DNA from: Geobacter metallireducens GS-15
GTDB lineage: Bacteria > Desulfobacterota > Desulfuromonadia > Geobacterales > Geobacteraceae
NCBI RefSeq assembly: GCF_000012925.1
Contig: NC_007517.1
Span: 2,040,001 to 2,072,000 of the forward strand
Direction of reading: 5' to 3'
Length of the DNA: 32,000 bases
Shown here: in pieces, positions 16,669 to 32,000 of the stretch
How positions within the stretch are numbered: position 1 is the stretch's first letter
Layout of the letters: each line of letters opens with the position of its first letter
Translations under genes and position numbers: made by a program
Notes under the pieces: model-generated
Told to the model about the DNA's origin: nothing
Database searches by the model: none
Seen by the model: only the letters and a program-made list of their open reading frames with translations

Positions 16669-16697
16669 TTGACTTTTAACGGTTCATGGGGTAAATT
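16669..16697 (+). promoter_or_regulatory. candidate sigma70 promoter for purMN (TTGACT-N17-TAAATT)
   Basis: Read directly. It lies about 29 nt upstream of the preferred TTG start and is followed by GGGAGG. Confidence 0.45.
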
Positions 16698-16725
16698 TTT
16701 TCGTCATTTCACGGGAGGAAACATT

Positions 16726-17772
16726 TTGGGCGCTAAGGGAATTACCTATAAAGATGCCGGCGTTGACATCGATGCCGGCAATACTTTTGTCAAAATGATC
16801 AAACCGTTCGTGCGGGCCACGTCGAGACCGGAGGTAATCTCCGACATCGGGGGCTTCGGGGGCCTCTTCTCGCTTAACACCAACAAATACAAGAATCCCG
16901 TGCTGGTTTCCGGCACCGACGGCGTTGGCACGAAACTCAAGATAGCCATGATGGCGGACCGCCACGACACGGTCGGGATCGATCTCGTGGCAATGTGCGT
17001 CAACGATATCGTTGTCCAGGGTGCCGAACCGCTCTTCTTCCTCGACTACTTTGCCACCGGCAGCCTCTCGCCGGAGCGCGGCGCCGCTGTCGTCAAGGGG
17101 ATTTCCGAAGGATGCATCCAGGCAGGATGCGCTCTCATTGGCGGCGAGACGGCCGAGATGCCCGGATTCTATCAGGACGGCGAGTACGACCTGGCAGGCT
17201 TCACCGTCGGTGTTGTGGATCGGGACAAGATCATTGACGGATCTTCCATCACCGTCGGTAATACCCTCATCGGCCTCGCCTCAAGCGGCCTCCACAGCAA
17301 CGGCTACTCCCTGGCCCGCAAAATCATTTTCGATACCCTTGGGTTTGGCATCAACGACATGCTTCCCGGACACGATCGGAGCGTTGCCGATGAACTGCTC
17401 ACCCCGACCCGGATTTATGTAAAGTCAGTTCTCAATCTTCTCCGGGACTTCCGGGTAAACGGCATCGCCCACATCACGGGAGGCGGGCTCCTGGAAAACG
17501 TTCCCCGCATTCTCCCCAAGGGATGCAAGGCGATCATACGACGCGACAGCTGGACCATGCCCGAGATATTCCGCATCCTGCAGAACGGCGGGAATATGGA
17601 GTGGACCGAGATGTATCGCACCTTCAACTGCGGCATCGGTATGGTTCTGGCTGTTCCCGAGAACGATGTGGACGAAGTCCTCATACGCCTCTCGGGACTC
17701 CAAGAGAAGGCTTTCGTCATCGGCGAAGTGGCCAAGTGTGAGGCCGGCACCGAGTCGGTGGAAATGATCTAA
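16726..17772 (+). CDS. purM: phosphoribosylformylglycinamidine cyclo-ligase (AIR synthetase)
   Basis: KDAGVDIDAGN, GGFGGLF and GTDGVGTKL motifs. I prefer TTG 16726 (GGGAGG 9 nt upstream) because the track start at 16669 lies inside a good TTGACT-N17-TAAATT promoter. Confidence 0.88.
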   Translation: MGAKGITYKDAGVDIDAGNTFVKMIKPFVRATSRPEVISDIGGFGGLFSLNTNKYKNPVLVSGTDGVGTKLKIAMMADRHDTVGIDLVAMCVNDIVVQGAEPLFFLDYFATGSLSPERGAAVVKGISEGCIQAGCALIGGETAEMPGFYQDGEYDLAGFTVGVVDRDKIIDGSSITVGNTLIGLASSGLHSNGYSLARKIIFDTLGFGINDMLPGHDRSVADELLTPTRIYVKSVLNLLRDFRVNGIAHITGGGLLENVPRILPKGCKAIIRRDSWTMPEIFRILQNGGNMEWTEMYRTFNCGIGMVLAVPENDVDEVLIRLSGLQEKAFVIGEVAKCEAGTESVEMI

Positions 17773-17785
17773 ACGGTTAATTCCC

Positions 17786-18406
17786 ATGACTGATCTTCTT
17801 ACTATCGGCGTTCTTGTCTCAGGAAACGGCTCTAACCTCCAGGCCATCATTGACCGGATCGAGGACGGTAGCCTCCCAGCCCGAATTGCCTGCGTCATCA
17901 GCAACAAGGCCGATGCCTATGCTTTGGACCGGGCGAAGTGCCACGGTATCACCGTCCACGTCCTCGACCACAGGATCCATGCGGGCCGTGAATCGTACGA
18001 CGCAGCCCTGGTTGAACTGCTTCGCTCCCACGGGGTGCGCCTCGTGGTGCTGGCCGGCTTCATGCGGATCGTTACCCCGGTCCTTATTGGAGCATTTCCC
18101 CATGCAATCATGAACATCCATCCGGCGTTACTTCCGGCATTCCCTGGCCTTCACGCCCAACGTCAGGCTTTGCAGTACGGTGTCAAAGTCTCTGGGTGCA
18201 CGGTGCATTTCGTTGATGAAGGAACCGACACTGGACCGATTATTATTCAAGCCGTCGTACCGGTTCTCGACGATGACACCGAGGATACGCTATCGGCCCG
18301 CATCCAGAAGGAAGAGCACCACATCTACCCTGAAGCGGTCAATCTCTTTGCCCAGGGCCGCCTCACCGTCGACGACCGGAAGGTTATCATCGCGCCGGCA
18401 TCCTGA
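17786..18406 (+). CDS. purN: phosphoribosylglycinamide formyltransferase
   Basis: 206 aa. VLVSGNGSNLQAI and NIHPALLPAFPG motifs. 13 nt after purM. Confidence 0.92.
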   Translation: MTDLLTIGVLVSGNGSNLQAIIDRIEDGSLPARIACVISNKADAYALDRAKCHGITVHVLDHRIHAGRESYDAALVELLRSHGVRLVVLAGFMRIVTPVLIGAFPHAIMNIHPALLPAFPGLHAQRQALQYGVKVSGCTVHFVDEGTDTGPIIIQAVVPVLDDDTEDTLSARIQKEEHHIYPEAVNLFAQGRLTVDDRKVIIAPAS

Positions 18407-22134: not shown

Positions 22135-23097
22135 TCAGTGTACCAGGGATGACGCGGGGACAAGGGTGACACCCTCATCCCGCAACTTCGGCAGTTCTGC
22201 AGCTAAGGCTTGGATAGTGGCGGGATGGGGGTGGCAGATGGCAATGGCGCTGCCCCTTTTGCGAGCGATGGAAGCAGCCTGCCTGATCTGCTTCGAAATA
22301 TATCCAACATCCTGAATATTGTCCAAAAAGACGGATCGTGACGCGGTTCTCAAGCCCATCTCTCGTGCAGTCGACTCTCCCACAGATATTGCCGACGTCT
22401 TGCTGTCGACAAAGAACAGCCCCTTCTCCTTCAGCACTCTCAGCACTATCGCCATCTTCTCTTTGTTTTCGGTGAATGCCGACCCCATGTGATTGTTGGC
22501 GCCAACCGCCTGGGGGACTTCCTTGAAATAACCGTTCATCCGGACCACAATCTCATCGTTACTCTGACTGAGAAGAAGACCGTTCTCCTCGAGACGGCGC
22601 TCCGGATACCCCTTCGGCTCCATGGGAAGATGGATCATTGCCTCGATCCCGCGCCGTTGTGCCTCTTGGGCAACCTGACGCACCTTCGGAAGCCCCGGGA
22701 TAATAGAGAACGTCACCGGTACGCCGATGTCAATGATCGATCGGGCTTCTTGCATACCCTTTCCCATGTCGTCAATGATGATAGCGAGATTTCCGGAACC
22801 GGCAGGACGTGGGCGGACATGCCGCTCAGTCGGTGGCGGCACCACTGTCGCCGTATAGTCCTCATGGACAACGGGTTCCTTTTCCGCCGCGGATTCCCGG
22901 GGCGGGAGCTTATGCCGTGCCACGACTTTTGGAGGTTCCGGTTTTTTCTCTGGGCGCTTCTGATTAAGCAGGCCATCAATAAGGAACACCGCCGCAACAA
23001 CCAGGACTGCAAGAATAATGAAACCAACAAGAGGACGAGAATTACGTCCGCCTTTTTTTCTGTTTACCTTGATTTTGCCATTTCGAGATGTAGCCAC
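22135..23097 (-). CDS. divergent polysaccharide deacetylase family protein (YibQ-like)
   Basis: 320 aa. N-terminal TM anchor. LAIIIDDMG and NNHMGS motifs typical of YibQ/DUF610. GTG start with AGGA upstream. Confidence 0.8.
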   Translation of the reverse strand: MATSRNGKIKVNRKKGGRNSRPLVGFIILAVLVVAAVFLIDGLLNQKRPEKKPEPPKVVARHKLPPRESAAEKEPVVHEDYTATVVPPPTERHVRPRPAGSGNLAIIIDDMGKGMQEARSIIDIGVPVTFSIIPGLPKVRQVAQEAQRRGIEAMIHLPMEPKGYPERRLEENGLLLSQSNDEIVVRMNGYFKEVPQAVGANNHMGSAFTENKEKMAIVLRVLKEKGLFFVDSKTSAISVGESTAREMGLRTASRSVFLDNIQDVGYISKQIRQAASIARKRGSAIAICHPHPATIQALAAELPKLRDEGVTLVPASSLVH

Positions 23098-23164
23098 AAA
23101 TCATCCTGTAAGTGGTATGTACGCTGGTAGTGTATAACACACCGCCGTTCTGGCGGGCAACGAA

Positions 23165-23196
23165 CAAAAAAGCCCGCCACTGTATGGCGGGCTTTT
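23165..23196 (-). terminator. intrinsic terminator after the cohesin/dockerin repeat gene
   Basis: agcccgcc (23171..23178) / ggcgggct (23186..23193) with a 7-nt loop. The minus strand reads hairpin then TTTTTTG. 17 nt after the stop at 23213. Confidence 0.75.
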
Positions 23197-23212
23197 GTCC
23201 TGACAGGGAACT

Positions 23213-24898
23213 TTACTTCTTGTTCTTTTTGCCTCCGCCAGCCGTCAAGTAATTGGCGGTATATATATAGTCATCTATATAATCATGCTTTCCATCACCG
23301 TTGAGGTCATATGCCGGCACCTTGGCGGCTCCATTCTTGGAAAGGAAGAGTGAAAAGTCTCCTTCATCCGTCACACCGTTTTTGTCAACATCGACATCCA
23401 CCCTCGGAGCGACGGTTAAAGGATAATCTACAATTTTCTCCCCATTTACGATGGTAAGCGTAGCCTCAATTTTTCCTGCTTCAGGAACGGCTTCTATCAG
23501 CCATCGGTTGTCTCCCTGCTTTTGCAAGGACGTGAGGCGGGCTCCTCTCAGGGCAAAATTTGGCGCATTACTGCCGCTTTCAGGCAATTCAAGCAGGACT
23601 TTTATCATCATCTTCCCGTCAGTAATGCATATCGCAGGATCCTGCTTGATTGATGTGGCCACGGGTTCATCAAACAATGCCCTAAGAGCTTTTGGTGTCC
23701 TGTCACCCGAATAACCCTTGAATCGCTCAAGCACTCCCTTGAAAACCGCGTATTTTTGTTCCTGTACCGATGTGGTAGGGACCGTATGTGGAGAAATGGG
23801 TGCTGTTGGAGGCTGATGCTCTTTGTCCTCCCGGTCGGCAGCCTCCGGAGATGGTTGCCACTGCGCGGGTTGGTCGCCCAAAGCCGGCTCCTGTGCATCG
23901 GGCGATGTAGGTTCCAAGGGCGACTGAGGTGCGTCTGGTAAAATTATTGTACCTTGAGCTACAAACGGTATCCTGGAACCCTGCGTGTCCGCTGAACTCT
24001 TGTCCGCTGAACTCTTGTCCGCTGAACCCTTGTCCGCTGAACCCTTGTCCACTGAACCCTTGTCCACTGAACCCTTGTCCACTGAACTTGTGACTGAGGG
24101 AGCCAGACCTGAGGAAACCCTGCCCGAGGAGCCTTTGTCCGCGGGACCCGTGTCTGAGGAACTCTTGTCGGGATAATTTTCTGTGCTTGTGGAGCCTGTG
24201 TCAGTGGAACCCGTGTCAGTGGAACCCGTGTTTGTGGAACCTGTGTTTGTGGAACCTGTGTTTGTGGAACCTGTGTTTGTGGAACCTGTGTTTGTGGAAC
24301 CTGTGTTTGTGGAACCTGTGTTTGTGGAACCTGTGTTTGTGGAACCTGTGTTTGTGGAACCTGTGTTTGTGGAACCTGTGTCAGTGGAGCCTGTGTCAGT
24401 GGAGCCTGTGTTTGTGGAACCTCCCGTGCCTGAAGATAAGCCAGTATCATCTTTACCGTCTTCACTCGTCAAGGGGCTCTCAATTGGTTGATTCGATGCG
24501 TCAAGACCGGTTAACTGGCAGGTGAGCGCCGGTTTCCCCCACGACTTGCTGACTGGAGAAAATGTAACAGTTGCCACCGTGCCAGAACCGGAAACAGGCG
24601 GCTCATTGACCATGACTACCTGTACCGTTCCAGACGTTTCTACAACGTTCGGCACGAAAACCAGCCAGGTGGCTAAGTCACCACTGACGACCTTAGGGCT
24701 CGACAATGATGCCTTGTCGTAAGTGAGTGTAAAATCAATAGCGCCAACATTGATGAGGCCGAGAGCAACAACCCTGTATCTCCCGTTGCCCATATCCACC
24801 AGGTTGAGACCAGTGCAGGATGCCGCAGCATCAAAAGTCATTGGAGAAATGATTAGTTGAGCACCCAACAGAAGAAGGGAAAGGCTTTTGACTTTCAT
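23213..24898 (-). CDS. secreted modular protein: cohesin-like module, (GST[ND]T)n and (DK[GS]S[VA])n repeats, Pro-rich linker, unknown domain, dockerin-like C-terminus
   Basis: Signal peptide MKVKSLSLLLLGAQLIISPMTFDAAA. INVGAIDFTLTYDKASLSSPKVVSGDL...GSGTVATVTFSPV is cohesin-like. The C-terminal DVDKNGVTDEGD and DLNGDGKHDYID are two DxDxNG/DxNxDG Ca-loops about 24 aa apart, as in dockerins. GGAGG Shine-Dalgarno upstream of ATG 24898. Confidence 0.8.
   Translation of the reverse strand: MKVKSLSLLLLGAQLIISPMTFDAAASCTGLNLVDMGNGRYRVVALGLINVGAIDFTLTYDKASLSSPKVVSGDLATWLVFVPNVVETSGTVQVVMVNEPPVSGSGTVATVTFSPVSKSWGKPALTCQLTGLDASNQPIESPLTSEDGKDDTGLSSGTGGSTNTGSTDTGSTDTGSTNTGSTNTGSTNTGSTNTGSTNTGSTNTGSTNTGSTNTGSTNTGSTNTGSTDTGSTDTGSTSTENYPDKSSSDTGPADKGSSGRVSSGLAPSVTSSVDKGSVDKGSVDKGSADKGSADKSSADKSSADTQGSRIPFVAQGTIILPDAPQSPLEPTSPDAQEPALGDQPAQWQPSPEAADREDKEHQPPTAPISPHTVPTTSVQEQKYAVFKGVLERFKGYSGDRTPKALRALFDEPVATSIKQDPAICITDGKMMIKVLLELPESGSNAPNFALRGARLTSLQKQGDNRWLIEAVPEAGKIEATLTIVNGEKIVDYPLTVAPRVDVDVDKNGVTDEGDFSLFLSKNGAAKVPAYDLNGDGKHDYIDDYIYTANYLTAGGGKKNKK
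23987..24091. repeat. 15-bp tandem repeat, 7 units (gtccgctgaaccctt consensus), in frame within CDS 23213..24898
   Basis: Hand alignment: variants occur in consecutive pairs (gtccgctgaactctt x2, gtccgctgaaccctt x2, gtccactgaaccctt x2), followed by a degenerate seventh unit. Encodes DK(G/S)S(V/A). Confidence 0.95.
24181..24420. repeat. 15-bp tandem repeat, 16 units (ctgtgtttgtggaac consensus), in frame within CDS 23213..24898
   Basis: Hand alignment: units start every 15 bp from 24181. Nine consecutive units (24241..24375) are identical, and flanking units differ by 1-4 nt. The array encodes GST(N/D)T pentapeptides on the minus strand. Confidence 0.97.
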
Positions 24899-25149
24899 TC
24901 ACTTTCCTCCGTAAAACAGAATCGTTCAGCAGAAATCCGGGATACCATGCCAGAGGTGTGATTACGATGGCATTCATGACCTGGTATGCTGTCTGCTGAT
25001 TATTACGATTATTGCCTCAAAAATGGCCGTTTCAGAAAAACAATCACGCTAATTGACGCAATTGCAGCGACGCAACCAGGAATAGCATGAGTGGCAGAGC
25101 CTTTTGGGCCAAGATTCACCACGAAAAACAATCTCTTGATTGAGGGTAA

Positions 25150-25165
25150 AGCACATACGATGCCA
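25150..25165 (-). promoter_or_regulatory. candidate sigma54 (-24/-12) promoter upstream of the repeat-protein gene: TGGCAT-CGTATG-TGCT
   Basis: The minus strand reads TGGCATCGTATGTGCT with the correct GG-N10-GC spacing. It starts right after the SARP terminator-like hairpin and about 250 nt upstream of ATG 24898. A weaker second match, TGGTTGCGTCGCTGCA, lies at 25063..25078. Confidence 0.3.
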
Positions 25166-25204
25166 AAAAATATGGTCCTTCAGATGCATTTGTGCACATG
25201 AAGG
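25165..25204 (-). terminator. terminator-like hairpin after the SARP gene
   Basis: ccttca (25177..25182) / tgaagg (25199..25204) with an inner TGCA/TGCA stem. On the minus strand it is followed by ACCATATTTTTT. Confidence 0.4.
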
Positions 25205-25230
25205 TTTAGCCTGGCAGCTCTATAGATAGA

Positions 25231-25869
25231 TCAGCTGTTTGTGTGAACGGCTTTGAGGAAGGAAATGGCTTCAACGGCATCGTTGTTGCCCTCGAGTTGG
25301 TAAACCTTTTGAAGAGAAGTAAGGACTGATTCGTGAAGTCTTTCAAGTTCCGCTCGTTCAGCGCAGATATGATGATCGAAGGGCTCTTCGGGAAGGAACT
25401 CCCCAGAATATTCATCCTGAGCAGCTTCGAGATATCTCCTGGCCCCGGAGATGTCTCCACGAGCCAGCATCTTGATTCCGGTCTGAGCGTATCCTTTGAA
25501 TTGGCTCGAATCAAGGGAGAAAATATTGAAATCGAGACGGATGGCTTCACCAAGAGTCATAATGGGATTAATACTGCGCGGGCCCATAAATGACTTGCGG
25601 AGTCTGCTCAAGGTGGTTTTGAAATTCTTTGCGCCGGAGACCGGGTCACAGCCAGGCCACAACATGTCAATGAGTTTGTCTCTGTGGAGCCACTGGTCGT
25701 AGGAAATGAGCAAATAGCAGAAGAGTATCCTCGCCTTCTGGCTTTCCCATAAAATGGTCATTGGGGAATTGAGATAAGAAAGTCCCAGTCCACCGAAGGT
25801 TTTTATGGAAATCTGCTCAGGGTTGACCGATCCTTTATCAACCGTTGCACCTGAAGGCTGTGGGTTCAT
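25231..25869 (-). CDS. small SARP-type transcriptional regulator (OmpR-like winged helix plus BTAD), likely counterpart of G. sulfurreducens GSU1771
   Basis: 212 aa. ISIKTFGGLGLSY...KARILFCYLLISYDQWLHRDKLIDMLWPG...AKNFKTTLSRLRKSF is a SARP DNA-binding pattern. ARGDISGARRYLEAAQDEYSGEFLPEEPF...ERAELERLH is BTAD-like. The GSU1771 link is from synteny and memory. Confidence 0.75.
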   Translation of the reverse strand: MNPQPSGATVDKGSVNPEQISIKTFGGLGLSYLNSPMTILWESQKARILFCYLLISYDQWLHRDKLIDMLWPGCDPVSGAKNFKTTLSRLRKSFMGPRSINPIMTLGEAIRLDFNIFSLDSSQFKGYAQTGIKMLARGDISGARRYLEAAQDEYSGEFLPEEPFDHHICAERAELERLHESVLTSLQKVYQLEGNNDAVEAISFLKAVHTNS

Positions 25870-25907
25870 TTTTATTAACCATAATTAAATTACAAACGAT
25901 TTCACGT

Positions 25908-25936
25908 TTTGTACTACAAAAGGAGAAATGAGTCAA
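25908..25936 (-). promoter_or_regulatory. candidate sigma70 promoter for the SARP gene (TTGACT-N17-TACAAA)
   Basis: Minus strand: -35 at 25936..25931 and -10 at 25913..25908. It lies between the ctpA terminator and the SARP ATG (25869). Confidence 0.4.
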
Positions 25937-25963
25937 GAAATGCTCCCTTTAAAAACAGACGCA

Positions 25964-25997
25964 TAAAAAAAGAGGGGATGGACTCCCCTCTTTTTTA
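25964..25997 (-). terminator. intrinsic terminator after ctpA (end of the ftsEX-envC-ctpA transcription unit)
   Basis: agagggga (25971..25978) / tcccctct (25984..25991) with a 5-nt loop, flanked by A6 and T6 runs. 20 nt after the ctpA stop. Confidence 0.8.
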
Positions 25998-26017
25998 CTT
26001 CTGCCCCGCTAATAGAC

Positions 26018-27352
26018 CTAATTAGCCCTATTCATCGTCTTAAGGATTTCCCATCCTTTCAGGAGATCAAGCGCGCGCAACACTTGGTAATCTCCTTTCA
26101 ACTGATCATCACTCTTGGCGGCGGGAACCTTCCCTTTCTCCGTTTTCTTGTCTTCCCCCTCCACCTTCTCTCCGGACTCGAAGTGGTTTTCCAGATCCTT
26201 TTCCCGGATATGGCCATCCTTTTTCTCGGTTGGTTGAATTTCGGCACGTTCCACAATGATGTCAGGGGTTATTCCCTTTGCCTGGATCGATCGCCCGTTC
26301 GGCGTGTAGTAACGCGCTGTGGTAAGACGCAGTCCCGAATCATCAGAAAGCGGAATGATTGTCTGCACCGAACCCTTGCCAAAACTCTGCGTCCCCATAA
26401 CGACTGCCCGCTTGTGGTCCTGCAAGGCACCGGCAACGATCTCAGAAGCACTCGCACTGCCACCGTTAATGAGCACAACCATCGGATAGGCTGGTTCCGT
26501 TCCTCCCTTGTGGGCGTTGAACTGCATCCGTGAATCCTTCTCTCGACCTTCTGTATAGACAATAAGTCCTTGCTCGACAAAATGGTCTGCAACCTTGACC
26601 GCCTGGTCCAGAAGCCCGCCAGGATCGTTGCGAAGGTCAAGGACAAGCCCCTTCAAGGACCCGCCATTTTCCTCTTTCAGCGTCGCAAGAGCCTTCACCA
26701 AATCATCATCTGTCTTCTCCTGAAACTGGGCTATTCTGATGTAACCATAACCATTGTCGAGAGACGAGAAACGGACACTCTTAACCTGAATGATGTCACG
26801 TACGAGGGTGAAGTCCTTCGGCTTGTCAAATCCCTCCCGCACGATGGTCAGGATGACCTTGGTCCCCTTCGCGCCGCGCATTCGCTTTACGGCATCCATA
26901 ATGGTCATGTCCTTGGTGAAGCGGTCATCAATCTTCAAAATCTGATCGCCAGCCTTGATTCCGGCACGGAAAGCTGGGGTGTCCTCAATTGGCGAGATAA
27001 CCGTCAGGATACCATCCTTGATGGTTATCTCTATGCCGAGTCCCCCAAAGGATCCCTTGGTGTCTATCTTCATTTCCTTGTACATATCAGGAGGCATAAA
27101 GGAGCTATGGGGATCTAAAGATGCCAACATACCGTTGATGGCCCCATAGATGAGTTTCTTGGTATCGACCTCTTCGACGTAACTCTTTTTTACGATGGCG
27201 AGGACATCGGTAAATAATTCGATGGACTCATAATCGTTTCCGCCCTGTGCCGCACAGTGTTTCTGGGCAACAAAGCCTCCTCCCGCAAGCATCGCAAAGA
27301 GCACTACCGCCAACAGCGCAATTTTTTTACCCTTCCTGGTTCCAAACATCAT
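26018..27352 (-). CDS. ctpA: carboxy-terminal processing protease (S41 family, PDZ domain)
   Basis: 444 aa. FGGLGIEI PDZ region, LVLDLRNDPGGLL, INGGSASASEIVAGALQD, and SFGKGSVQT (Ser/Lys dyad context). Confidence 0.9.
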   Translation of the reverse strand: MMFGTRKGKKIALLAVVLFAMLAGGGFVAQKHCAAQGGNDYESIELFTDVLAIVKKSYVEEVDTKKLIYGAINGMLASLDPHSSFMPPDMYKEMKIDTKGSFGGLGIEITIKDGILTVISPIEDTPAFRAGIKAGDQILKIDDRFTKDMTIMDAVKRMRGAKGTKVILTIVREGFDKPKDFTLVRDIIQVKSVRFSSLDNGYGYIRIAQFQEKTDDDLVKALATLKEENGGSLKGLVLDLRNDPGGLLDQAVKVADHFVEQGLIVYTEGREKDSRMQFNAHKGGTEPAYPMVVLINGGSASASEIVAGALQDHKRAVVMGTQSFGKGSVQTIIPLSDDSGLRLTTARYYTPNGRSIQAKGITPDIIVERAEIQPTEKKDGHIREKDLENHFESGEKVEGEDKKTEKGKVPAAKSDDQLKGDYQVLRALDLLKGWEILKTMNRAN

Positions 27353-27376: not shown

Positions 27377-28561
27377 CTACCTGCACCATGACGCCGGATC
27401 GACCGGACGTCCCTGATAACGGATCTCGAAATAGAGCATATCACCCCGCGGGGAATCGACATCCCCGACACTGGCGATTGTCTCGTTTCTCGCCACCTCT
27501 GCTCCCACCCGTTTGGCGATTCGCGAAGCATGGGCGTAAAGGCTGAAAAATCCCCCGCCATGATCAACAATCACCATATTACCGTAACCTTTAAAGTAGT
27601 TTGCAAAAATGACTTTGCCTTCGTAGACAGCCTTGATATCGGCACCAGAGGGGGCTGCTATGGAAACACCATTACTTACTGTGTAGGAATTGAATTCCGG
27701 ATGTTTATGACGTCCAAATCCGCTCACAATTTTGCCACTAACAGGCAGCGACAGTCTCCCCCGCTGAGCACCGAAACCCTTGTCCGAAATGGGAGGAAGT
27801 ACCGGCGACATCCCTTTTGCCGATGGTTTCCGAGCAGCTGAAGTATAGCTTTTTCTACTCATGGCTTCAAGCTTTCGCACCATTGCCTGAAGCCTTCCGG
27901 CGTTGGCCTGGAGCTCACGCAAGGACGCCAGATGGGCCTGCTTGTCTTGCCGCACCTTTACGAGATAGGCCGCCTTGTTGCTTTTTTCGCCTGCGATCTC
28001 CTGCTTTTTCTGCTCGATGCCAATCTTGAGACGTTCCTTACGGTTGGCATCGTTTTCGAGTACCACCTTAAGCTTTGAAAGTTCCGCAATTTTCTTGTTG
28101 TAGTCGGCAAAGAGTTTTCGGTCGTTATCAATGACCGACCTCATGTACCGCAGATTTTCTACCATCTGGGGGAACGACTCAGAGGAGTAAAAAACCCTCA
28201 CATTACCGATTTCCCCGGCTTTATAGACGGCAACAAGTCGGCGCTCAATCTCATGCTTTTTCTGCTCAACTTCATTCCGTACAGTATTAATTTCCGTCTC
28301 GGTCTTGGAGATGGTTCGCTCCACGCCCTGGAGCTCCCTGGCAAGGGACGCAAACTGAGCTTCCTTTTGTTTGAGGTTCCGGTCAATGGCTTGCAGTTCG
28401 CCCGACACCTGCTGCTCCACCTTTGTGGTCTTTTTCAGAAGTTGCTTCTTCTCCTTGATTTCCTTCTTGACCCCCTGCAACTGGTCACGCACATCGGCAT
28501 CGGCTGCAGCCGCCGTAAGGAGCACCACCAGCAAAGCGGTTATGGACTGTAGCCATCTCAT
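27377..28561 (-). CDS. envC: murein hydrolase activator, EnvC-like (coiled coil plus degenerate LytM/M23 domain)
   Basis: Signal peptide, about 230 aa of heptad-rich coiled coil, and a C-terminal M23 fold. The usual HxxxD and HxH metal ligands are replaced (SNGVSI, MLYFEIR). ATGA overlap with the ftsX stop. Confidence 0.85.
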   Translation of the reverse strand: MRWLQSITALLVVLLTAAAADADVRDQLQGVKKEIKEKKQLLKKTTKVEQQVSGELQAIDRNLKQKEAQFASLARELQGVERTISKTETEINTVRNEVEQKKHEIERRLVAVYKAGEIGNVRVFYSSESFPQMVENLRYMRSVIDNDRKLFADYNKKIAELSKLKVVLENDANRKERLKIGIEQKKQEIAGEKSNKAAYLVKVRQDKQAHLASLRELQANAGRLQAMVRKLEAMSRKSYTSAARKPSAKGMSPVLPPISDKGFGAQRGRLSLPVSGKIVSGFGRHKHPEFNSYTVSNGVSIAAPSGADIKAVYEGKVIFANYFKGYGNMVIVDHGGGFFSLYAHASRIAKRVGAEVARNETIASVGDVDSPRGDMLYFEIRYQGRPVDPASWCR

Positions 28562-29508
28562 TGCGGGTTATTGATGAATCGTTTCAGGGAAGTGAGGCTA
28601 CCAAGGAACCCGAGGACCACTCCTCCGGCAAGAATTCCGGCAATATACAATGGCGGAAGGAACGAAAGCCCCGATACCGACGAGGAGAAGTTGACGAAAT
28701 TCGTCGCGCTGTGGAGAAAACCGAAAAAAGCAGCCACAAGAATGAGAAGTGACAGAACTGCTCCGGCAGCGCCCTGGATGATTCCCTCAATGAGGAAAGG
28801 AGCCTTGATGAAAAATCGGGTGGCCCCCACAAGCTCCATCACCTCAATCTCCTCTTTTCTGGCGTAGATTGTCAATTTTATGGTGTTTGACACAATAAAG
28901 AGCACTGCCATCAGGAGGAATCCTCCAAGGAGCGCTCCCACAAAGCGAAGGAAGTTCATGAACGTATTGAAGCGCCTGACCCATTCTTCGCCATACTGGA
29001 CCTCCGCTATGCCGGGAACTTTTTTGAGCCTGCCAACATAAGCCTCCATAGCGGCATCTTCACGACTATTACGCTTCAGAGTTATCTCGATGGAAGAAGG
29101 AAGCACGTCCGCCGGAACCCCTTCGAGAAGAGTTTCCTGGCCCTTCAGACGTTCGCGAAAACGCTTCATGGCTTCCTGTTTGCTGACGTACCCGACCTTA
29201 TCAGTCCCATCAATGGCCTTCACCCTCGTCATGATAGCAGAAAGTTCCTGAGGGGTTGGCTCAGTATTGAAATACGCGGTCACCTGAATCTTCCCACTCC
29301 ACTCATCGGCCGTAGACTCCAGATTCACGAAAATGAGGAGGAACAGCGAAACGATAAGAAGCGCCAGGGTTATGGTACCGATGGCGAGAACGTTCACCAG
29401 AACGTTCTGACGAATATTGAGGAGTGCCCGGGCAAAGAAGTAGCGGATCCTCCCCCCTACCCCGTCACTGGACATGGCGGGACGAATGGACGGCTTATTT
29501 CGGGACAT
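28558..29508 (-). CDS. ftsX: cell-division ABC transporter permease-like protein FtsX
   Basis: Four TM segments with a large first periplasmic loop, downstream of ftsE. I prefer ATG 29508 (GGAGGA 6 nt upstream) to the track's TTG at 29523. Confidence 0.88.
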
Positions 29509-30166
29509 CGGTATCCTCCGCAACGCGGCCCCTATCGAGCACGATAACGCGCCTATGGCTGTTCTCGATCACCCGGCGGTCGTGGGTCGCCACCACCACC
29601 GTGGTACCCTTGATGTTCGCTTCCCGGAATATGGACAGAATCTGTTCCTTGTTCTCGTCGTCCAGATTGCCGGTCGGTTCGTCTGCCAGGAGAATCTTCG
29701 GCTCATTCACCAGCGCCCGGGCCAGGGCGACCCGTTGCTGCTCCCCTCCGGAAAGCCTTAGGGGGGTGGCGTTGATCTTGTGCTCGATCCCCATTTGTTT
29801 TAGTACATGGTAGACCTTTTTGCCGATATCACGCTTACTCCAGCCAAGCACCTCAAGGGTTATGGCCACGTTTTCCAGAACCGTCCGATTGGGGAGGAGC
29901 TTGAAATCTTGGAAAACAACGCCGATGGTTCGGCGCAGAAGCGGAATCTGTGTCCGGGTGAGTCGGGTGATGTTCTGGCCGTCAACGAGGACCTGCCCCC
30001 GCGAGGGGGAAAGCGCCCCGTAGACCAGTTTCAGGAGGGTCGATTTTCCCGCACCGGAAGGGCCGGTAACAAAAACAAAGTCCCCTTTGGGGACCTTGAG
30101 GGAAACGTCGTTCAAAGCTGCCGCGTCGCTCTGATACGACAGGAAAACATTGTGGAACTGAATCAT
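29495..30166 (-). CDS. ftsE: cell-division ATP-binding protein FtsE
   Basis: [11 protein letters not shown]..., Walker [10 protein letters not shown], signature LSGGEQQR, Walker [16 protein letters not shown] 30166 has GAGGA upstream; the track's GTG extension is rejected. Confidence 0.92.
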
Positions 30167-30217
30167 CGTATCCTCTTTCCTCGTCACTGCCTCCGTGCGG
30201 TTGTTACCCGCAACGCG

Positions 30218-30640
30218 TTACCATTCTTTATACGGTTTCCCGTCAGTTCCCACCAGATCAGAACCACTATGGACATCGTAGACATTACCGGTTTCCTGTT
30301 TACCGGCGTCCGCCCCGCCAGTCGGAGCCGGGGGGGCGATAGTTTCCCAGCTGTCAGTTTTCCTGGTAAAGGGATCCGTCGGTAAACCGTGGATATATTT
30401 CTTGTCGACAAGATCTTGAAGCGTATCGGGATACTTCCCCTGGTCGGCGTAAAATTGGTCTATGCTGCTTCGGATGCTGTAGAGGTTCTCCCGCAACACT
30501 GCCTCTCTCGCCTTGATGAGGCTCCACTTGTAGCTCGGCACAGCAATGGTGGCCAGGATGCCGATGATGGTCACAACAATCATCAACTCCACAAGCGTAA
30601 AGCCTTTGCTTTTTGTTAGCATTTTTCGGAAGCTCGGCAC
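30218..30640 (-). CDS. GspG-like type II secretion pseudopilin (OxpG-like)
   Basis: Prepilin motif KSKG|FTLVELMIVVTIIGILATIAVP, then a GspG-like YADQGKYPDTLQDLV...LPTDPF region. The start is GTG 30640 (AGGA 8 nt upstream) or ATG 30622. Confidence 0.8.
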   Translation of the reverse strand: MPSFRKMLTKSKGFTLVELMIVVTIIGILATIAVPSYKWSLIKAREAVLRENLYSIRSSIDQFYADQGKYPDTLQDLVDKKYIHGLPTDPFTRKTDSWETIAPPAPTGGADAGKQETGNVYDVHSGSDLVGTDGKPYKEW

Positions 30641-30641
30641 G

Positions 30642-31157
30642 TTACCAGTCCTTGTATTTTGTCCCGTCGATGGCCGTACCCTCGCTCAGGGAATAGACGT
30701 CATACACGTCCGAATTGTCCCACGTCGTGCTATCGGGCTCGTCCTTGTAGGAACGCAGACCCCATTCGGGCTTTTCCCCTGACGCGGGACGGTTGAAGGG
30801 ATCTACGGGAATCCTCCGGAGGAACTTTTTCTTGGTCGACTTCGCTTCGCCGCCGAAATCGGTACCCGTAACCAGAACCTCCAGGGTTTCGGGATATCCT
30901 GTCTCGTTCAGGATCTGTTTCCCCTTGTGGGCGTCGTCATAGGCTTTTTTGTACTCGTCTATGGCAGTGCGGATCTCCCTGAGGGATCTGCGCAGCTCAA
31001 GCTCCTTGTTCCGCTTGACGGTCATCTGGGTAAAGGGAACTATCACTGTCGCCAGTATACCGAGAATGGTTACAGTCATTATGAGCTCAATAAAGCTCAA
31101 TCCCTTACGGTTTCGTATATACCTCACTGTCGAGACACCGATAAACTTCACGCTCAC
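30642..31157 (-). CDS. GspG-like pseudopilin paralog (171 aa as drawn; start uncertain)
   Basis: RKG|LSFIELIMTVTILGILATVIVP prepilin motif. GYPETLEVLV...IPVDPF. The C-terminus SDVYDVYSLSEGTAIDGTKYKDW parallels GNVYDVHSGSDLVGTDGKPYKEW of the neighbouring gene. The drawn GTG 31157 overlaps the upstream stop (GTGA); an internal GTG would give the leader MRYIRNRKG. Confidence 0.75.
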   Translation of the reverse strand: MSVKFIGVSTVRYIRNRKGLSFIELIMTVTILGILATVIVPFTQMTVKRNKELELRRSLREIRTAIDEYKKAYDDAHKGKQILNETGYPETLEVLVTGTDFGGEAKSTKKKFLRRIPVDPFNRPASGEKPEWGLRSYKDEPDSTTWDNSDVYDVYSLSEGTAIDGTKYKDW

Positions 31158-32000
31158 TTAACTTCGACAACCGTATTGTAGGGTACGACATCAATCGGCT
31201 TATTTGCCTGGTCAGTGAAGTTCACGCTCTGGAGGCCGAGGCTGGCCGGCCCCTTGTTCTTGGCAGTGAAGGTCGCGGTGAGGAGCGAACCGGCACCGTC
31301 GATGCCTTCGGCACCGGTTCGCGCCAATGTAATGGTCACCCTTCCCTTCGCCTTATCTACCTGGGCGTTGAAGCTGGTCGGCTTGCCATCCCGATTCAGG
31401 AACGTCCCTTCGACTGCCCCCACATAATCTATGAAAATCGGATCGTAGATAAGGACAAAGGGCGCCTTAAGGAGGCCCTTGACGTCGGAGACCCTGATCT
31501 CGACCTTGAACTGGGAGCCGAGATTCACAGCTGCCGGTGCAGATATATTAAGGCTTCCGCGCACGGCTGGCGCAGGTGCTGCAGCAACAGGGACGGCAGA
31601 CGCTGCTGCCACCGTCGCGGCAGGAGCCGCAGGAGAAGCCGGTACGGGAAGGGGCGCAACCGCCTGGGATTGCGCTGTGGACGGCGGGGCAGGCTGCTGA
31701 CCTGGAGCCGGCGCCGCCGATTGTTTGACTTCCGGGGAAGTCGTTGTCTGCGGGGCTGCCGTGGGTGCCGGACTACCGGGAACGGGTTGTAGAGGCGCAA
31801 CTCTCTGGGCAGGTGCAGAGACAGAAGCAGGAACCGGTGCAGGCGATGCTGCCGGCTGCTTGACGGTTTTGGGTTGGCCGATGGCAAACTCCGGCTCAAG
31901 CTCAAATGAAGCGAATGGTTTGACAACCGAGGGATCGTCCTCCTTGCCCGACCAGAAGGAAACAAGATCAGGCTCGGGAACGGTGACGGAACGGACCAGA
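31154..32000 (-). CDS. partial ORF (5' end outside the window): Pro/Ala-rich linker followed by a C-terminal cohesin-like module
   Basis: I translated this frame codon by codon from 31612 to 31999 and found no stop, so the track's GTG at 31612 is internal. The C-terminus LNISAPAAVNLGSQFKVEIRVSDVKGLLKAPFVLIYDPIFIDYVGAVEGTFL...GAGSLLTATFTAKNKGPASL is cohesin-like. Confidence 0.75.
   Translation of the reverse strand, partial: LVRSVTVPEPDLVSFWSGKEDDPSVVKPFASFELEPEFAIGQPKTVKQPAASPAPVPASVSAPAQRVAPLQPVPGSPAPTAAPQTTTSPEVKQSAAPAPGQQPAPPSTAQSQAVAPLPVPASPAAPAATVAAASAVPVAAAPAPAVRGSLNISAPAAVNLGSQFKVEIRVSDVKGLLKAPFVLIYDPIFIDYVGAVEGTFLNRDGKPTSFNAQVDKAKGRVTITLARTGAEGIDGAGSLLTATFTAKNKGPASLGLQSVNFTDQANKPIDVVPYNTVVEVK

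What the first reader, a model, noticed from the sequence alone, without database searches (positions are those of the whole stretch)
23098..26017. AT-richer two-gene insert splits the conserved envC-ctpA / yibQ neighbourhood and is bracketed by terminators
The ftsE-ftsX-envC-ctpA genes run straight into a strong terminator at 25964..25997, and the YibQ-like deacetylase gene starts at 23097. EnvC and YibQ are adjacent in E. coli, and CtpA/EnvC/YibQ-type genes commonly cluster.

Here two genes sit between them: a SARP regulator and the cohesin/dockerin repeat protein. Each has its own candidate promoter and terminator. By hand count the spacer 24901..25200 is 44% GC. Samples of both inserted genes give about 40-53% GC, against 52-72% in samples of flanking housekeeping genes. 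I did not compute window-wide GC. I see no integrase, transposase, tRNA or flanking direct repeats, so if the insert was acquired the event is old.

From memory, the same position in G. sulfurreducens holds GSU1771, a SARP regulator whose loss enhances pilin expression, extracellular electron transfer and biofilm.
Basis: partly seen in the sequence, partly recalled or inferred. Interest (0 to 1): 0.7.

Follow-up and report, generated by a model that had tools for sequence, protein, structure and literature searches.

The report
Old Geobacter regulator-plus-surface-protein insert
Two genes, the counterpart of the known Geobacter electron-transfer and biofilm repressor GSU1771 and an unstudied secreted cohesin/dockerin-like protein, were inserted long ago into a conserved cell-division operon; the insert is real but ancient, and the regulator is already known.

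Summary
On the minus strand, ftsE-ftsX-envC-ctpA ends in a strong terminator (25964-25997). Two genes follow: a 212-aa SARP regulator (25231-25869) and a 561-aa secreted repeat protein (23213-24898). Then come a second strong terminator (23168-23196) and yibQ/sddA (22135-23097).

Synteny in 88 loci supports an insertion. Every outgroup locus that covers both genes (Trichlorobacter, Desulfuromonadaceae, Trichloromonas) has ctpA directly next to yibQ. The deepest Geobacteraceae branches already carry SARP and the repeat gene between them. The event is therefore family-old, not a recent island. No tRNA, mobility gene or flanking repeats were found.

The GC dip is real but small: 49.0% against 55.3% for the window. 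It recurs, with varying size, in most but not all orthologous loci and is deepest in the regulatory spacers.

The regulator is the positional orthologue of G. sulfurreducens GSU1771, at 72% identity. Published gsu1771 primers map to the equivalent spacer.

The second gene is the GSU1770 orthologue. It belongs to a large uncharacterised family with the layout signal peptide, cohesin, variable linker, Ig-like domain and dockerin-like tail. It lies downstream of a type II secretion system whose secretin also carries a cohesin domain.

Interest is moderate to low. The unstudied cohesin/dockerin-like protein is the only new lead.

The parts
31157..32000 (-). 3' end of the PulQ-like type II secretion secretin gene (runs off the window). 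It encodes a Pro/Ala-rich linker and a C-terminal cohesin domain (about 31157-31561).
   Evidence: The frame is open from 32000 to 31157. tblastn with residues 691-826 of the G. sulfurreducens secretin gives 75% identity, E 2e-61. That secretin has Pfam Cohesin at 695-798, 38 bits.
30218..31157 (-). Two pseudopilin genes (30642-31157 and 30218-30640).
   Evidence: N_methyl motif in the 140-aa protein. Homologous to the two G. sulfurreducens pseudopilins upstream of ftsE.
27377..30187 (-). ftsE (29495-30187), ftsX (28558-29523) and envC (27377-28561).
   Evidence: Pfam ABC_tran; FtsX_ECD + FtsX; Peptidase_M23. NCBIfam EnvC 116 bits.
26018..27352 (-). ctpA, a carboxy-terminal processing protease (S41 + PDZ). 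It is the last gene of the upstream unit.
   Evidence: Pfam Peptidase_S41 202 bits, PDZ. TIGR00225 prc 355 bits.
25964..25997 (-). Intrinsic terminator after ctpA. It forms the upstream border of the insert.
   Evidence: -25.1 kcal/mol, z -6.1, T run. A hairpin in the same place is seen in L002-L005, L007, L008 and L085.
25908..25936 (-). Conserved sigma-70-type promoter of the SARP gene: -35 TTGACT (25936-25931), 17 nt, -10 TACAAA (25913-25908).
   Evidence: TTGAC(T/A)-N17/18-TAnnAn is conserved in 9 lineages. One of them is L087, where the gene sits elsewhere in the genome. The equivalent 195-bp fragment in G. sulfurreducens binds GSU1771 and IHF (PMC10599522, PMC7962754).
25231..25869 (-). 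212-aa minimal SARP regulator (winged helix-turn-helix plus a short BTAD). It is the orthologue of G. sulfurreducens GSU1771.
   Evidence: Pfam BTAD 28.4 bits, above the cut-off of 22.1, but covering only model positions 1-72 of 146. Profile against PDB: EmbR E 4.8e-6, AfsR 1.9e-4. Foldseek top six hits are EmbR/AfsR, E 6e-6 to 2e-4. 72% identity to P0030. Synteny and primer mapping.
24899..25230 (-). 332-nt spacer, 44% GC, between the SARP and repeat genes. It is poorly conserved and has a GGAGG ribosome-binding site at 24910-24906.
   Evidence: GC. The alignment shows conservation only with the closest relative. The candidate hairpin at 25040-25065 is no better than shuffles. No Rfam match.
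23213..24898 (-). 561-aa secreted modular protein, the GSU1770 orthologue, identical to the G. metallireducens GS-15 'pentapeptide repeat protein'. Layout:
- signal peptide, residues 1 to about 27
- cohesin, residues about 28-135 (24494-24817)
- disordered linker, residues about 140-370
- Ig-like beta-sandwich, residues about 383-497 (23408-23752)
- dockerin-like two-helix calcium-loop module, residues about 498-553 (23240-23407)
   Evidence: Pfam Cohesin 27.9 bits on the isolated N-terminus, cut-off 24.1. Dockerin_1 17.0 bits, below the cut-off of 22.9. AlphaFold2 model of residues 372-561: pLDDT 88, pTM 0.85. Foldseek finds invasin/intimin/filamin Ig-like domains, best E 6e-4. Invariant D531, N533, D535, G536, Y540 and D542. 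Orthology to the G. sulfurreducens 452-aa and Geotalea 446-aa proteins.
24181..24422 (-). 15-bp tandem array, 16 copies, encoding (GSTNT/GSTDT)n in the linker.
   Evidence: TRF score 386, 93% matches. It accounts for the Pfam Pentapeptide_2 hit. This region is not conserved in orthologues.
23986..24087 (-). Second 15-bp tandem array, 6.8 copies, encoding (DKGSV/DKGSA/DKSSA)n.
   Evidence: TRF score 169, 97% matches.
23168..23196 (-). Intrinsic terminator after the repeat gene. It forms the downstream border of the insert.
   Evidence: 13-bp stem, -25.3 kcal/mol, z -6.1, T run.
23131..23160 (-). Candidate separate promoter for yibQ: TTGCCC (23160-23155), 18 nt, TATACA (23136-23131).
   Evidence: Read from the sequence only. 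Not tested and not conserved-checked.
22135..23097 (-). yibQ/sddA-type divergent polysaccharide (peptidoglycan) deacetylase.
   Evidence: Pfam PF04748 276 bits. 100% identical to the G. grbiciae protein over the 218-aa query.

Best explanation
The interval is an ancient, lineage-specific insertion into the conserved ftsEX-envC-ctpA-yibQ(sddA) cell-division and envelope operon. It was most likely fixed near the base of the Geobacteraceae. The window comes from G. metallireducens or G. grbiciae.

It carries two separable genes.

1. The orthologue of GSU1771. This is a minimal SARP regulator with a winged-helix DNA-binding domain and a truncated BTAD. It is transcribed from its own conserved sigma-70-type promoter, immediately after the ctpA terminator. 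[quoted passage not shown] Its loss raises expression of the adjacent type II secretion genes, cytochromes, exopolysaccharide and biofilm. By inference, the window's copy does the same job.

2. The orthologue of GSU1770. This is a secreted protein built from a cohesin domain, a fast-evolving disordered linker (15-bp tandem repeats here), an Ig-like domain and a dockerin-like calcium-loop tail. By inference it is an extracellular or periplasmic scaffold or adaptor. It would use cohesin-dockerin-type contacts with itself, with dockerin-bearing enzymes, or with the cohesin domain on the neighbouring PulQ-type secretin.

A structural consequence follows, shown by the sequence and comparative data but not by transcript data. 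The two strong terminators cut yibQ/sddA off from envC-ctpA. In the outgroups, and in Pseudomonas and E. coli, these genes are contiguous and, where tested, form one operon.

The mild AT-richness most likely reflects AT-rich regulatory spacers, a low-complexity linker and weak codon adaptation, not recent foreign origin.
For: Layout, terminators and composition.

Same gene order elsewhere. The order secretin(cohesin)-pseudopilins-ftsEX-envC-ctpA-SARP-rep-yibQ-parA(-)-xseA is found in G. sulfurreducens and Geotalea. It is also found in L004, L005, L007, L008, L020, L067 and L086.

Outgroups. In all outgroup loci that cover both genes, ctpA abuts yibQ. In the YibQ+ParA neighbour-joining tree the insert appears only in the Geobacteraceae clade, from its deepest branches L086 and L067 onward.

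Restricted distribution. All named sources among the SARP hits (206 clusters) and the repeat-protein hits (107 clusters) are Geobacteraceae or Geobacter-clade MAGs.

SARP fold. Pfam BTAD; EmbR and AfsR by profile and by Foldseek.

Identity with gsu1771. Published EMSA primers map to L002 7807-8000, and ftsX = GSU1774 in the paper's table fits the numbering.

Function in G. sulfurreducens. PMC10599522 and PMC7962754.

The SARP promoter is conserved, even where the gene has moved.

Repeat-protein architecture.. The family has 704 representatives at 50% clustering and is uniform in length and layout.

Links to a cohesin/dockerin system. The secretin carries a cohesin domain. In L086 an S8 protease with a dockerin-like tail sits between SARP and rep. 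In Geomonas sp. Red32, rep directly follows the T2SS-ftsEX-envC-ctpA cluster.

envC-(ctpA)-yibQ forms an operon with balanced expression in E. coli and P. aeruginosa.
Against: Timing of the insertion.
- The tree is a quick neighbour-joining tree on two proteins, not a species tree.
- Three MAGs inside the Geobacteraceae clade (L018, L019, L022) have ctpA directly next to yibQ. Either they lost the insert cleanly or the timing is less simple than proposed.

The two genes are not an obligate pair.
- SARP sits between rsmA and yceD in L087 and L088.
- rep stays with yibQ, without ctpA or SARP, in L009-L011, L015-L017, L025 and L027.
- rep follows ctpA without SARP in L056, L057 and L084.

Coupling between the regulator and its neighbour.
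- GSU1770 is not among the differentially expressed genes in the published delta-gsu1771 tables. Nothing shows that the regulator controls its neighbour.

The cohesin-dockerin reading.
- The dockerin assignment is below Pfam's threshold (17.0 against 22.9 bits). PDB sequence hits to dockerins are not significant (E 0.41 and 2.7).
- The cohesin-bearing secretin also occurs in outgroups that lack rep, so rep is not its obligatory partner.

No transcript data exist for this organism to show that termination and separate yibQ transcription really occur.
Confidence: 0.8

Rival explanations
1. It is a recently acquired genomic island. The AT-richer DNA was brought in by horizontal transfer and is still compositionally foreign.
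For: This is the lowest-GC 3-kb stretch in the window, at 49.0% against 55.3%. The SARP gene has the lowest GC of 32 ORFs. The repeat gene has the second-lowest codon-adaptation index, 0.60 against 0.73 +/- 0.055.
Against: The same two genes are in the same slot in G. sulfurreducens, Geotalea, G. hydrogenophilus and deep-branching Geobacteraceae, at 52-98% protein identity.

There is no tRNA, integrase, transposase or bordering repeat.

The flanking ctpA, envC and ftsX genes are only 51-52% GC.

The dip recurs in most orthologous loci regardless of genome GC, and it vanishes in the low-GC L067 and shrinks in the high-GC L020. It therefore tracks the host.
Confidence: 0.03
2. It is not an insertion. 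The SARP and repeat genes were part of the ancestral cluster and were lost independently in Trichlorobacter, Desulfuromonadaceae and Trichloromonas.
For: The cohesin-bearing secretin and the T2SS-ftsEX-envC-ctpA cluster do predate the Geobacteraceae. Clean absence inside the family (L018, L019, L022) shows that loss or absence without a scar is possible.
Against: At least three outgroup clades, plus Pseudomonas and E. coli, have envC/ctpA contiguous with yibQ. No named homologue of either gene was found outside the Geobacter clade. This reading needs several independent precise deletions, against one insertion.
Confidence: 0.1
3. The two genes form one functional module. The SARP regulator specifically controls the adjacent cohesin/dockerin-like gene, as pathway-specific SARPs control neighbouring clusters in Streptomyces.
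For: The genes are adjacent and on the same strand in many Geobacter and Geotalea genomes. There is no convincing terminator between them. SARPs are classically cluster-situated regulators (established knowledge).
Against: The genes separate freely in evolution. Other genes are often inserted between them. The 332-nt spacer is not conserved. GSU1770 is absent from the published delta-gsu1771 differential-expression tables, whereas distant targets and the upstream pul genes are present.
Confidence: 0.1

Closest known systems
GSU1771 of Geobacter sulfurreducens (SARP-family repressor of extracellular electron transfer, pili and biofilm; Tremblay 2011; Hernandez-Eligio 2022; PMC10599522)
   Same: 72% identity over 94% of the length, and a similar length (212 against 215 aa). 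Same genomic slot after ctpA. The terminator and the TTGAC-N17-TAnnAn promoter upstream are conserved.
   Different: Nothing has been tested in this organism. The N-terminal approximately 20 residues differ. The published description of an N-terminal receiver domain is not supported by the model or by Pfam here: the protein is a wHTH plus a short BTAD.
Actinobacterial SARPs (AfsR SARP module, EmbR; PDB 8k60, 8hvr, 2fez)
   Same: OmpR-type winged-helix DNA-binding domain followed by BTAD helices. These are the best structural and profile matches.
   Different: The BTAD is about half length: Pfam positions 1-72 of 146 are matched, and four helices follow the DNA-binding domain. There is no NB-ARC, TPR or FHA extension. 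The protein is described as acting mainly as a repressor in Geobacter, whereas SARPs are classically activators. It is not cluster-situated for secondary metabolism.
envC-ctpA-PA5135(yibQ) operon of P. aeruginosa and envC-sddA(yibQ) operon of E. coli
   Same: Same gene families in the same order. The outgroup Desulfuromonadales keep ctpA and yibQ contiguous.
   Different: Here a terminator, two extra genes and a second terminator separate ctpA from yibQ. The co-expression considered important for the EnvC/SddA balance in E. coli is probably broken.
Cellulosomal scaffoldins and cohesin-dockerin systems of Clostridia, and the non-cellulosomal cohesin/dockerin proteins reported in other bacteria and archaea
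   Same: A cohesin domain passes Pfam's threshold on the isolated N-terminus. The C-terminal module has two helices, each preceded by an Asp/Asn-rich loop (invariant DxNxDG...D), as in type I dockerins.
   Different: A single cohesin and a single dockerin-like module sit in one small protein. The dockerin score is below threshold. There are no carbohydrate-active enzymes. The context is a type II secretion and cell-division locus in a metal reducer. No binding data exist.

Membership tests
SARP (AfsR/SARP) transcriptional regulators | BTAD (bacterial transcriptional activation) domain | tested here: met
   Pfam PF03704, 28.4 bits against a cut-off of 22.1. Only model positions 1-72 of 146 are matched, so the domain is truncated.
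SARP (AfsR/SARP) transcriptional regulators | N-terminal OmpR-type winged helix-turn-helix DNA-binding domain | tested here: met
   No Pfam Trans_reg_C hit at E <= 0.01. The family profile aligns to EmbR residues 9-152 (E 4.8e-6) and to AfsR. The AlphaFold2 model (pLDDT 74) has the beta-strand and three-helix wing layout and best matches EmbR/AfsR.
Orthologue of GSU1771 | Best match in G. sulfurreducens, in conserved synteny, to the gene actually studied as gsu1771 | tested here: met
   P0030 is 72% identical and is the only protein named G. sulfurreducens among the 120 hits listed. Identical flanking order. Published gsu1771 EMSA primers map to L002 7807-8000, just upstream of it.
Orthologue of GSU1771 | Genome-wide reciprocal best hit | not testable with these tools
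   Whole proteomes of the two species cannot be compared here. Only the window and the fetched loci are available.
Cohesin domain (PF00963) | Score above Pfam's gathering threshold | tested here: met
   27.9 bits against 24.1 on the isolated N-terminus. Not reported for the full-length protein at E <= 0.01. Orthologues score 18.6-27.8 bits. The assignment is borderline but consistent.
Type I dockerin (PF00404) | Duplicated calcium-binding loop-helix segment scoring above the Pfam threshold | tested here: inconclusive
   17.0 bits against 22.9, E 0.007. PDB profile hits to dockerins are not significant: 2y3n_B at E 0.41 and 5lxv_B at E 2.7. The model shows two helices, at full-protein residues 512-520 and 540-552. 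Only the second is preceded by the invariant DxNxDG..D loop. The first loop is degenerate in many family members.
Pentapeptide repeat proteins (the GenBank name of the identical GS-15 protein) | A conserved repeat fold, not low-complexity sequence | tested here: not met
   Pfam Pentapeptide_2 gives E 1e-19. The hit lies on a 15-bp tandem array, in a linker that is replaced by unrelated low-complexity sequence in every orthologue.
Horizontally acquired genomic island | Mobility genes, tRNA or repeat borders, and patchy presence among close relatives | tested here: not met
   No tRNA. No bordering repeats. No integrase or transposase among the ORFs. The interval is present in every Geobacter/Geotalea-clade locus that covers the junction.
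Conserved envC-ctpA-yibQ operon | Contiguity of ctpA and yibQ without an intervening terminator | tested here: not met
   A 2.9-kb interval with two strong terminators lies between them here. The feature is met in the outgroup loci, with gaps of 16-43 nt in Trichlorobacter.

The most novel reading that the evidence does not exclude
The GSU1770-family protein may be the adaptor of a previously unrecognised, non-cellulosomal cohesin-dockerin system in Geobacteraceae. Its dockerin-like tail would plug into the cohesin domain on the PulQ-type secretin, or into the cohesin of another copy to form chains. Its own cohesin would capture dockerin-tagged secreted enzymes, such as the S8 protease encoded in the same slot in L086. 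This would organise exoproteins at the cell surface, next to the master repressor of extracellular electron transfer.
Probability: 0.15. Interest if true: 0.7.

Novelty: new member of a known kind. Interest (0 to 1): 0.35.

Why it matters
The regulator is already a known lever for thicker, more conductive Geobacter biofilms. This work adds three points.

1. Its gene, with its own promoter, is a family-wide feature that landed inside a cell-division operon.

2. The landing probably uncoupled the peptidoglycan deacetylase YibQ/SddA from EnvC. In E. coli the balance between these two proteins matters.

3. The regulator's constant neighbour belongs to a large family that nobody has studied (704 representatives at 50% clustering). 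That family combines cohesin and dockerin-like modules, beside a secretion system whose secretin also carries a cohesin domain.

Only the third point could open something new, namely how Geobacter arranges proteins on its surface. The rest is confirmation and tidy comparative genomics.

Tried and rejected
- Riboswitch or other RNA element in the spacers. Rfam at gathering threshold on the whole window, and at E <= 1 on 22900-26200, gave only sub-threshold hits on the terminator hairpins.
- Terminator between the two genes. The 25040-25065 hairpin is no better than shuffled sequence.
- Conserved element in the SARP-rep spacer. The alignment shows conservation only with the nearest relative.
- Flanking repeats or tRNA as insertion scars. 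None found.
- Origin of rep's cohesin by duplication of the secretin's cohesin. BLASTP gives only a 40-residue match at E 0.001, which is not informative.
- Dockerin confirmation by structure search. Foldseek matched only the Ig-like domain. The PDB sequence profile gave non-significant dockerin hits.
- Literature on GSU1770. No paper in the library mentions it. The Geobacter + cohesin + dockerin search listed nothing whose title or abstract concerns this locus (the papers were not opened).
- Strict co-occurrence of rep with the cohesin-bearing secretin. Rejected as a rule, because the secretin with cohesin also occurs in outgroups without rep.
- A CATTTCT direct repeat (25942-25936 and 25930-25924) flanking the -35 was considered as a SARP binding site. 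It is not conserved beyond the closest relative.

Full report
WHAT IS THERE

All genes of interest are on the minus strand. From high to low coordinates, the order is:

- the 3' end of a secretin gene that runs off the window (31157-32000)
- two pseudopilin genes (30218-31157)
- ftsE, ftsX and envC
- ctpA (26018-27352)
- a 148-nt spacer
- a 212-aa SARP/BTAD gene (25231-25869)
- a 332-nt spacer
- a 561-aa gene (23213-24898)
- a 115-nt spacer
- a yibQ-type deacetylase gene (22135-23097)

A ParA-like gene lies on the plus strand beyond yibQ, and xseA follows.

The YibQ query, 218 aa of the catalytic domain, is 100% identical to the G. grbiciae protein. The 561-aa protein is identical to a G. metallireducens GS-15 protein annotated 'pentapeptide repeat protein'. 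The window therefore comes from that species pair.

CHECK OF THE OBSERVATION

It folds at -25.1 kcal/mol (z = -6.1 against 200 shuffles) and is followed by a T run. An equally strong one follows the 561-aa gene at 23168-23196. The only hairpin between the two inserted genes is no better than chance.

The composition results are as follows.

- The interval is 49.0% GC against 55.3% for the window. It is the lowest-GC 2.9-kb stretch of the window.
- The spacers are 44.0% and 35.1% GC.
- The SARP gene, at 48.5%, has the lowest GC of 32 ORFs.
- The 561-aa gene has low GC3 (50.2%) and a codon-adaptation index of 0.60, against 0.73 +/- 0.055 for the other genes.

A comparable dip is seen in G. sulfurreducens, where the SARP gene is 47% against flanks of 51-61%. 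It shrinks in a 60%-GC relative and vanishes in a 37%-GC relative. The composition therefore tracks the host. It does not date an acquisition.

There is no tRNA, no bordering repeat, no mobility gene and no Rfam element.

IS IT AN INSERT?

I fetched 80 species-representative loci around YibQ homologues and eight more through exact-protein look-ups. I mapped ten window proteins onto them by tblastn.

Every outgroup locus that covers both genes has ctpA directly next to yibQ. These outgroups are Trichlorobacter, a large Desulfuromonadaceae-labelled clade, and Trichloromonas and other Desulfuromonadales. The gaps are as short as 16-43 nt.

I built a neighbour-joining tree of YibQ plus the ParA-like protein (711 columns, 70 loci). 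In it, the SARP and repeat genes appear between ctpA and yibQ only in the Geobacteraceae clade, and already in its deepest branches (L086, L067).

Published work shows the same contiguity elsewhere. P. aeruginosa has an envC-ctpA-PA5135(yibQ) operon. E. coli has an envC-sddA(yibQ) operon, in which co-expression balances the two proteins.

Later history is untidy.

- Some lineages have extra genes between SARP and rep. These are Big_1 lipoproteins in L008, L067 and L085, and a 148-aa lipoprotein, an S8 protease and a 257-aa Big_1 protein in L086.
- In several lineages the cluster broke between SARP and rep, leaving rep-yibQ alone (L009-L011, L015-L017, L025, L027).
- In Geomonas sp. Red32, and in L056 and L057, rep follows ctpA without SARP.
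- In L087 and L088 the SARP gene sits between rsmA and yceD-rpmF-plsX.
- Three Geobacteraceae MAGs (L018, L019, L022) have ctpA next to yibQ.

The two genes are thus separable units, not an obligate pair.

THE REGULATOR

The profile of 29 family members matches EmbR (E 4.8e-6) and AfsR. The AlphaFold2 model has a pLDDT of 74, and its six best PDB matches are EmbR and AfsR SARP modules. Pfam BTAD passes its threshold but covers only the first half of the model. The protein is therefore a minimal SARP: a winged-helix domain plus four helices.

It is 72% identical to the G. sulfurreducens protein in the same slot. That protein is gsu1771 itself. The published gsu1771 EMSA primers bracket the 194-nt stretch from the 3' end of ctpA across the spacer, ending one base before the gene's start codon. 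The paper's GSU1774 = ftsX fits the gene count.

In G. sulfurreducens, GSU1771 binds the promoters of pgcA, pulF, relA, gsu3356 and its own gene. Its deletion up-regulates pulF, pulP, pulQ, pulG and ftsX, which lie immediately upstream, and gives thicker, more electroactive biofilms (PMC10599522). IHF binds the same intergenic fragment (PMC7962754), which fits its 35% GC.

Upstream of the gene, a ctpA terminator hairpin and a TTGAC(T/A)-N17/18-TAnnAn promoter are conserved across nine lineages. One of these is a lineage where the gene has moved elsewhere. In the window the -35 is at 25936-25931 and the -10 at 25913-25908. The regulator is thus an independent transcription unit.

THE SECOND GENE

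Orthology to the 452-aa G. sulfurreducens protein (GSU1770 by position) and the 446-aa Geotalea protein is clear at both ends: E 2e-86 overall, and about 50-60% identity in the C-terminal 190 residues. The middle is unrelated low-complexity sequence in every species.

In the window the middle holds two 15-bp tandem arrays, 16 and 6.8 copies. These arrays cause the 'pentapeptide repeat' annotation, which is best regarded as a misnomer.

The isolated N-terminus passes Pfam's cohesin threshold, 27.9 against 24.1 bits.

The C-terminal 190 residues model with high confidence (pLDDT 88, pTM 0.85). The model has a seven-stranded Ig-like sandwich, which resembles invasin, intimin and filamin domains with a best Foldseek E of 6e-4. 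Two helices follow. The second helix is preceded by an invariant DxNxDG..D..D loop.

Pfam Dockerin_1 scores 17.0 bits, below the cut-off of 22.9. Two of nine weak PDB profile hits are dockerins. 'Dockerin-like' is a fair description, but membership is not established.

The family is large and uniform. There are 107 clusters at 90% identity, all those named being Geobacteraceae, and 704 representatives at 50% identity. Most are 410-450 aa with this module at the C-terminus. No paper in the library mentions GSU1770.

CONTEXT THAT BEARS ON FUNCTION

The secretin of the adjacent atypical type II secretion system carries a C-terminal cohesin domain, both in the window and in relatives. That feature predates the repeat gene, because outgroups without rep also have it.

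In L086 an S8 protease with a dockerin-like tail is encoded between SARP and rep. Its Dockerin_1 score is 17.7 bits with near-full model coverage.

These points make a cohesin-dockerin-type interaction network at this locus plausible, but none of it has been tested. GSU1770 is not among the genes that change in the delta-gsu1771 biofilm transcriptomes. There is therefore no evidence that the regulator controls its neighbour.

MOST LIKELY PICTURE

Shown by data:
- The layout and the two terminators.
- Conservation of the arrangement within the family and its absence in the outgroups.
- SARP family membership and orthology to GSU1771.
- The domain architecture of the second protein.

Inferred:
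- A single insertion at the base of Geobacteraceae.
- Transcriptional uncoupling of yibQ from envC-ctpA. A candidate yibQ promoter lies at 23131-23160.
- The same regulatory role as GSU1771.
- A scaffold or adaptor role for the second protein.

NOVELTY AND VERDICT

The regulator and its phenotype are known, and this copy is one more orthologue. Two things appear not to be described in the library searched:
- the placement of the pair as a family-old insertion that splits a widely conserved division operon
- the definition of the GSU1770 family as a cohesin/Ig/dockerin-like secreted protein next to a cohesin-bearing secretin

Both are modest comparative-genomics points. The second is a testable lead. 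Interest is moderate to low overall.

Noticed in passing
window 31157-32000 (-), and L002 243-2723, L084 871-3567: The PulQ-type secretin of the atypical type II secretion system ends in a Pro/Ala-rich linker and a C-terminal cohesin domain (Pfam 38-43 bits). The feature is also present in Desulfuromonadales outgroups that lack the repeat gene. A secretin carrying a cohesin domain is unusual, and its binding partner is unknown.
   Followed up: partly
L086 10352-11977: In one deep-branching Geobacteraceae contig, a subtilisin-type S8 protease with a dockerin-like C-terminal module sits between the SARP gene and the cohesin protein gene. Its Dockerin_1 score is 17.7 bits with near-full model coverage. 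It is flanked by small Gly-rich lipoproteins.
   Followed up: partly
L008 6523-7992, L085 9737-11500 and 11640-12116, L086 9713-10159 and 11980-12753: The slot between SARP and the cohesin protein repeatedly holds lineage-specific lipoproteins. They have a signal peptide, a Cys followed by a poly-Gly run, and in three of the five a Big_1 Ig-like domain. The ends of two of them resemble each other (...F(K/L)DAQGN(T/P)L). The site behaves as a hot spot for surface-protein genes.
   Followed up: partly
window 23986-24087 and 24181-24422: Two near-perfect 15-bp tandem arrays encode the linker of the 561-aa protein. They are the reason the identical GS-15 protein is named 'pentapeptide repeat protein'. 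Orthologues have unrelated linkers, so the arrays are probably prone to copy-number change.
   Followed up: partly
window 25924-25942 (-): A direct repeat, CATTTCT ... CATTTCT, with a 12-nt period brackets the -35 hexamer of the SARP promoter. It is identical in G. hydrogenophilus but is not conserved in more distant relatives.
   Followed up: partly
L087 9001-9660 and L088 9001-9642: In some Geobacteraceae-like contigs the GSU1771-type gene (52-58% identity) lies between rsmA/ksgA and yceD-rpmF-plsX-fabH. In L087 it keeps the same TTGACT-N17-TATAAG promoter.
   Followed up: partly
window 16669-18406 (+) against L002 14385-16648: Beyond xseA the window carries purM and purN on the opposite strand. 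G. sulfurreducens and Geotalea have xseB-ispA-dxs there. This is a further local rearrangement between close genera.
   Followed up: no
PMC10599522, introduction: The paper describes GSU1771 as having an N-terminal response-receiver domain. Neither Pfam nor the structure model nor the EmbR/AfsR alignments show one. The N-terminal part is the winged-helix DNA-binding domain, preceded by about 20 disordered residues.
   Followed up: partly
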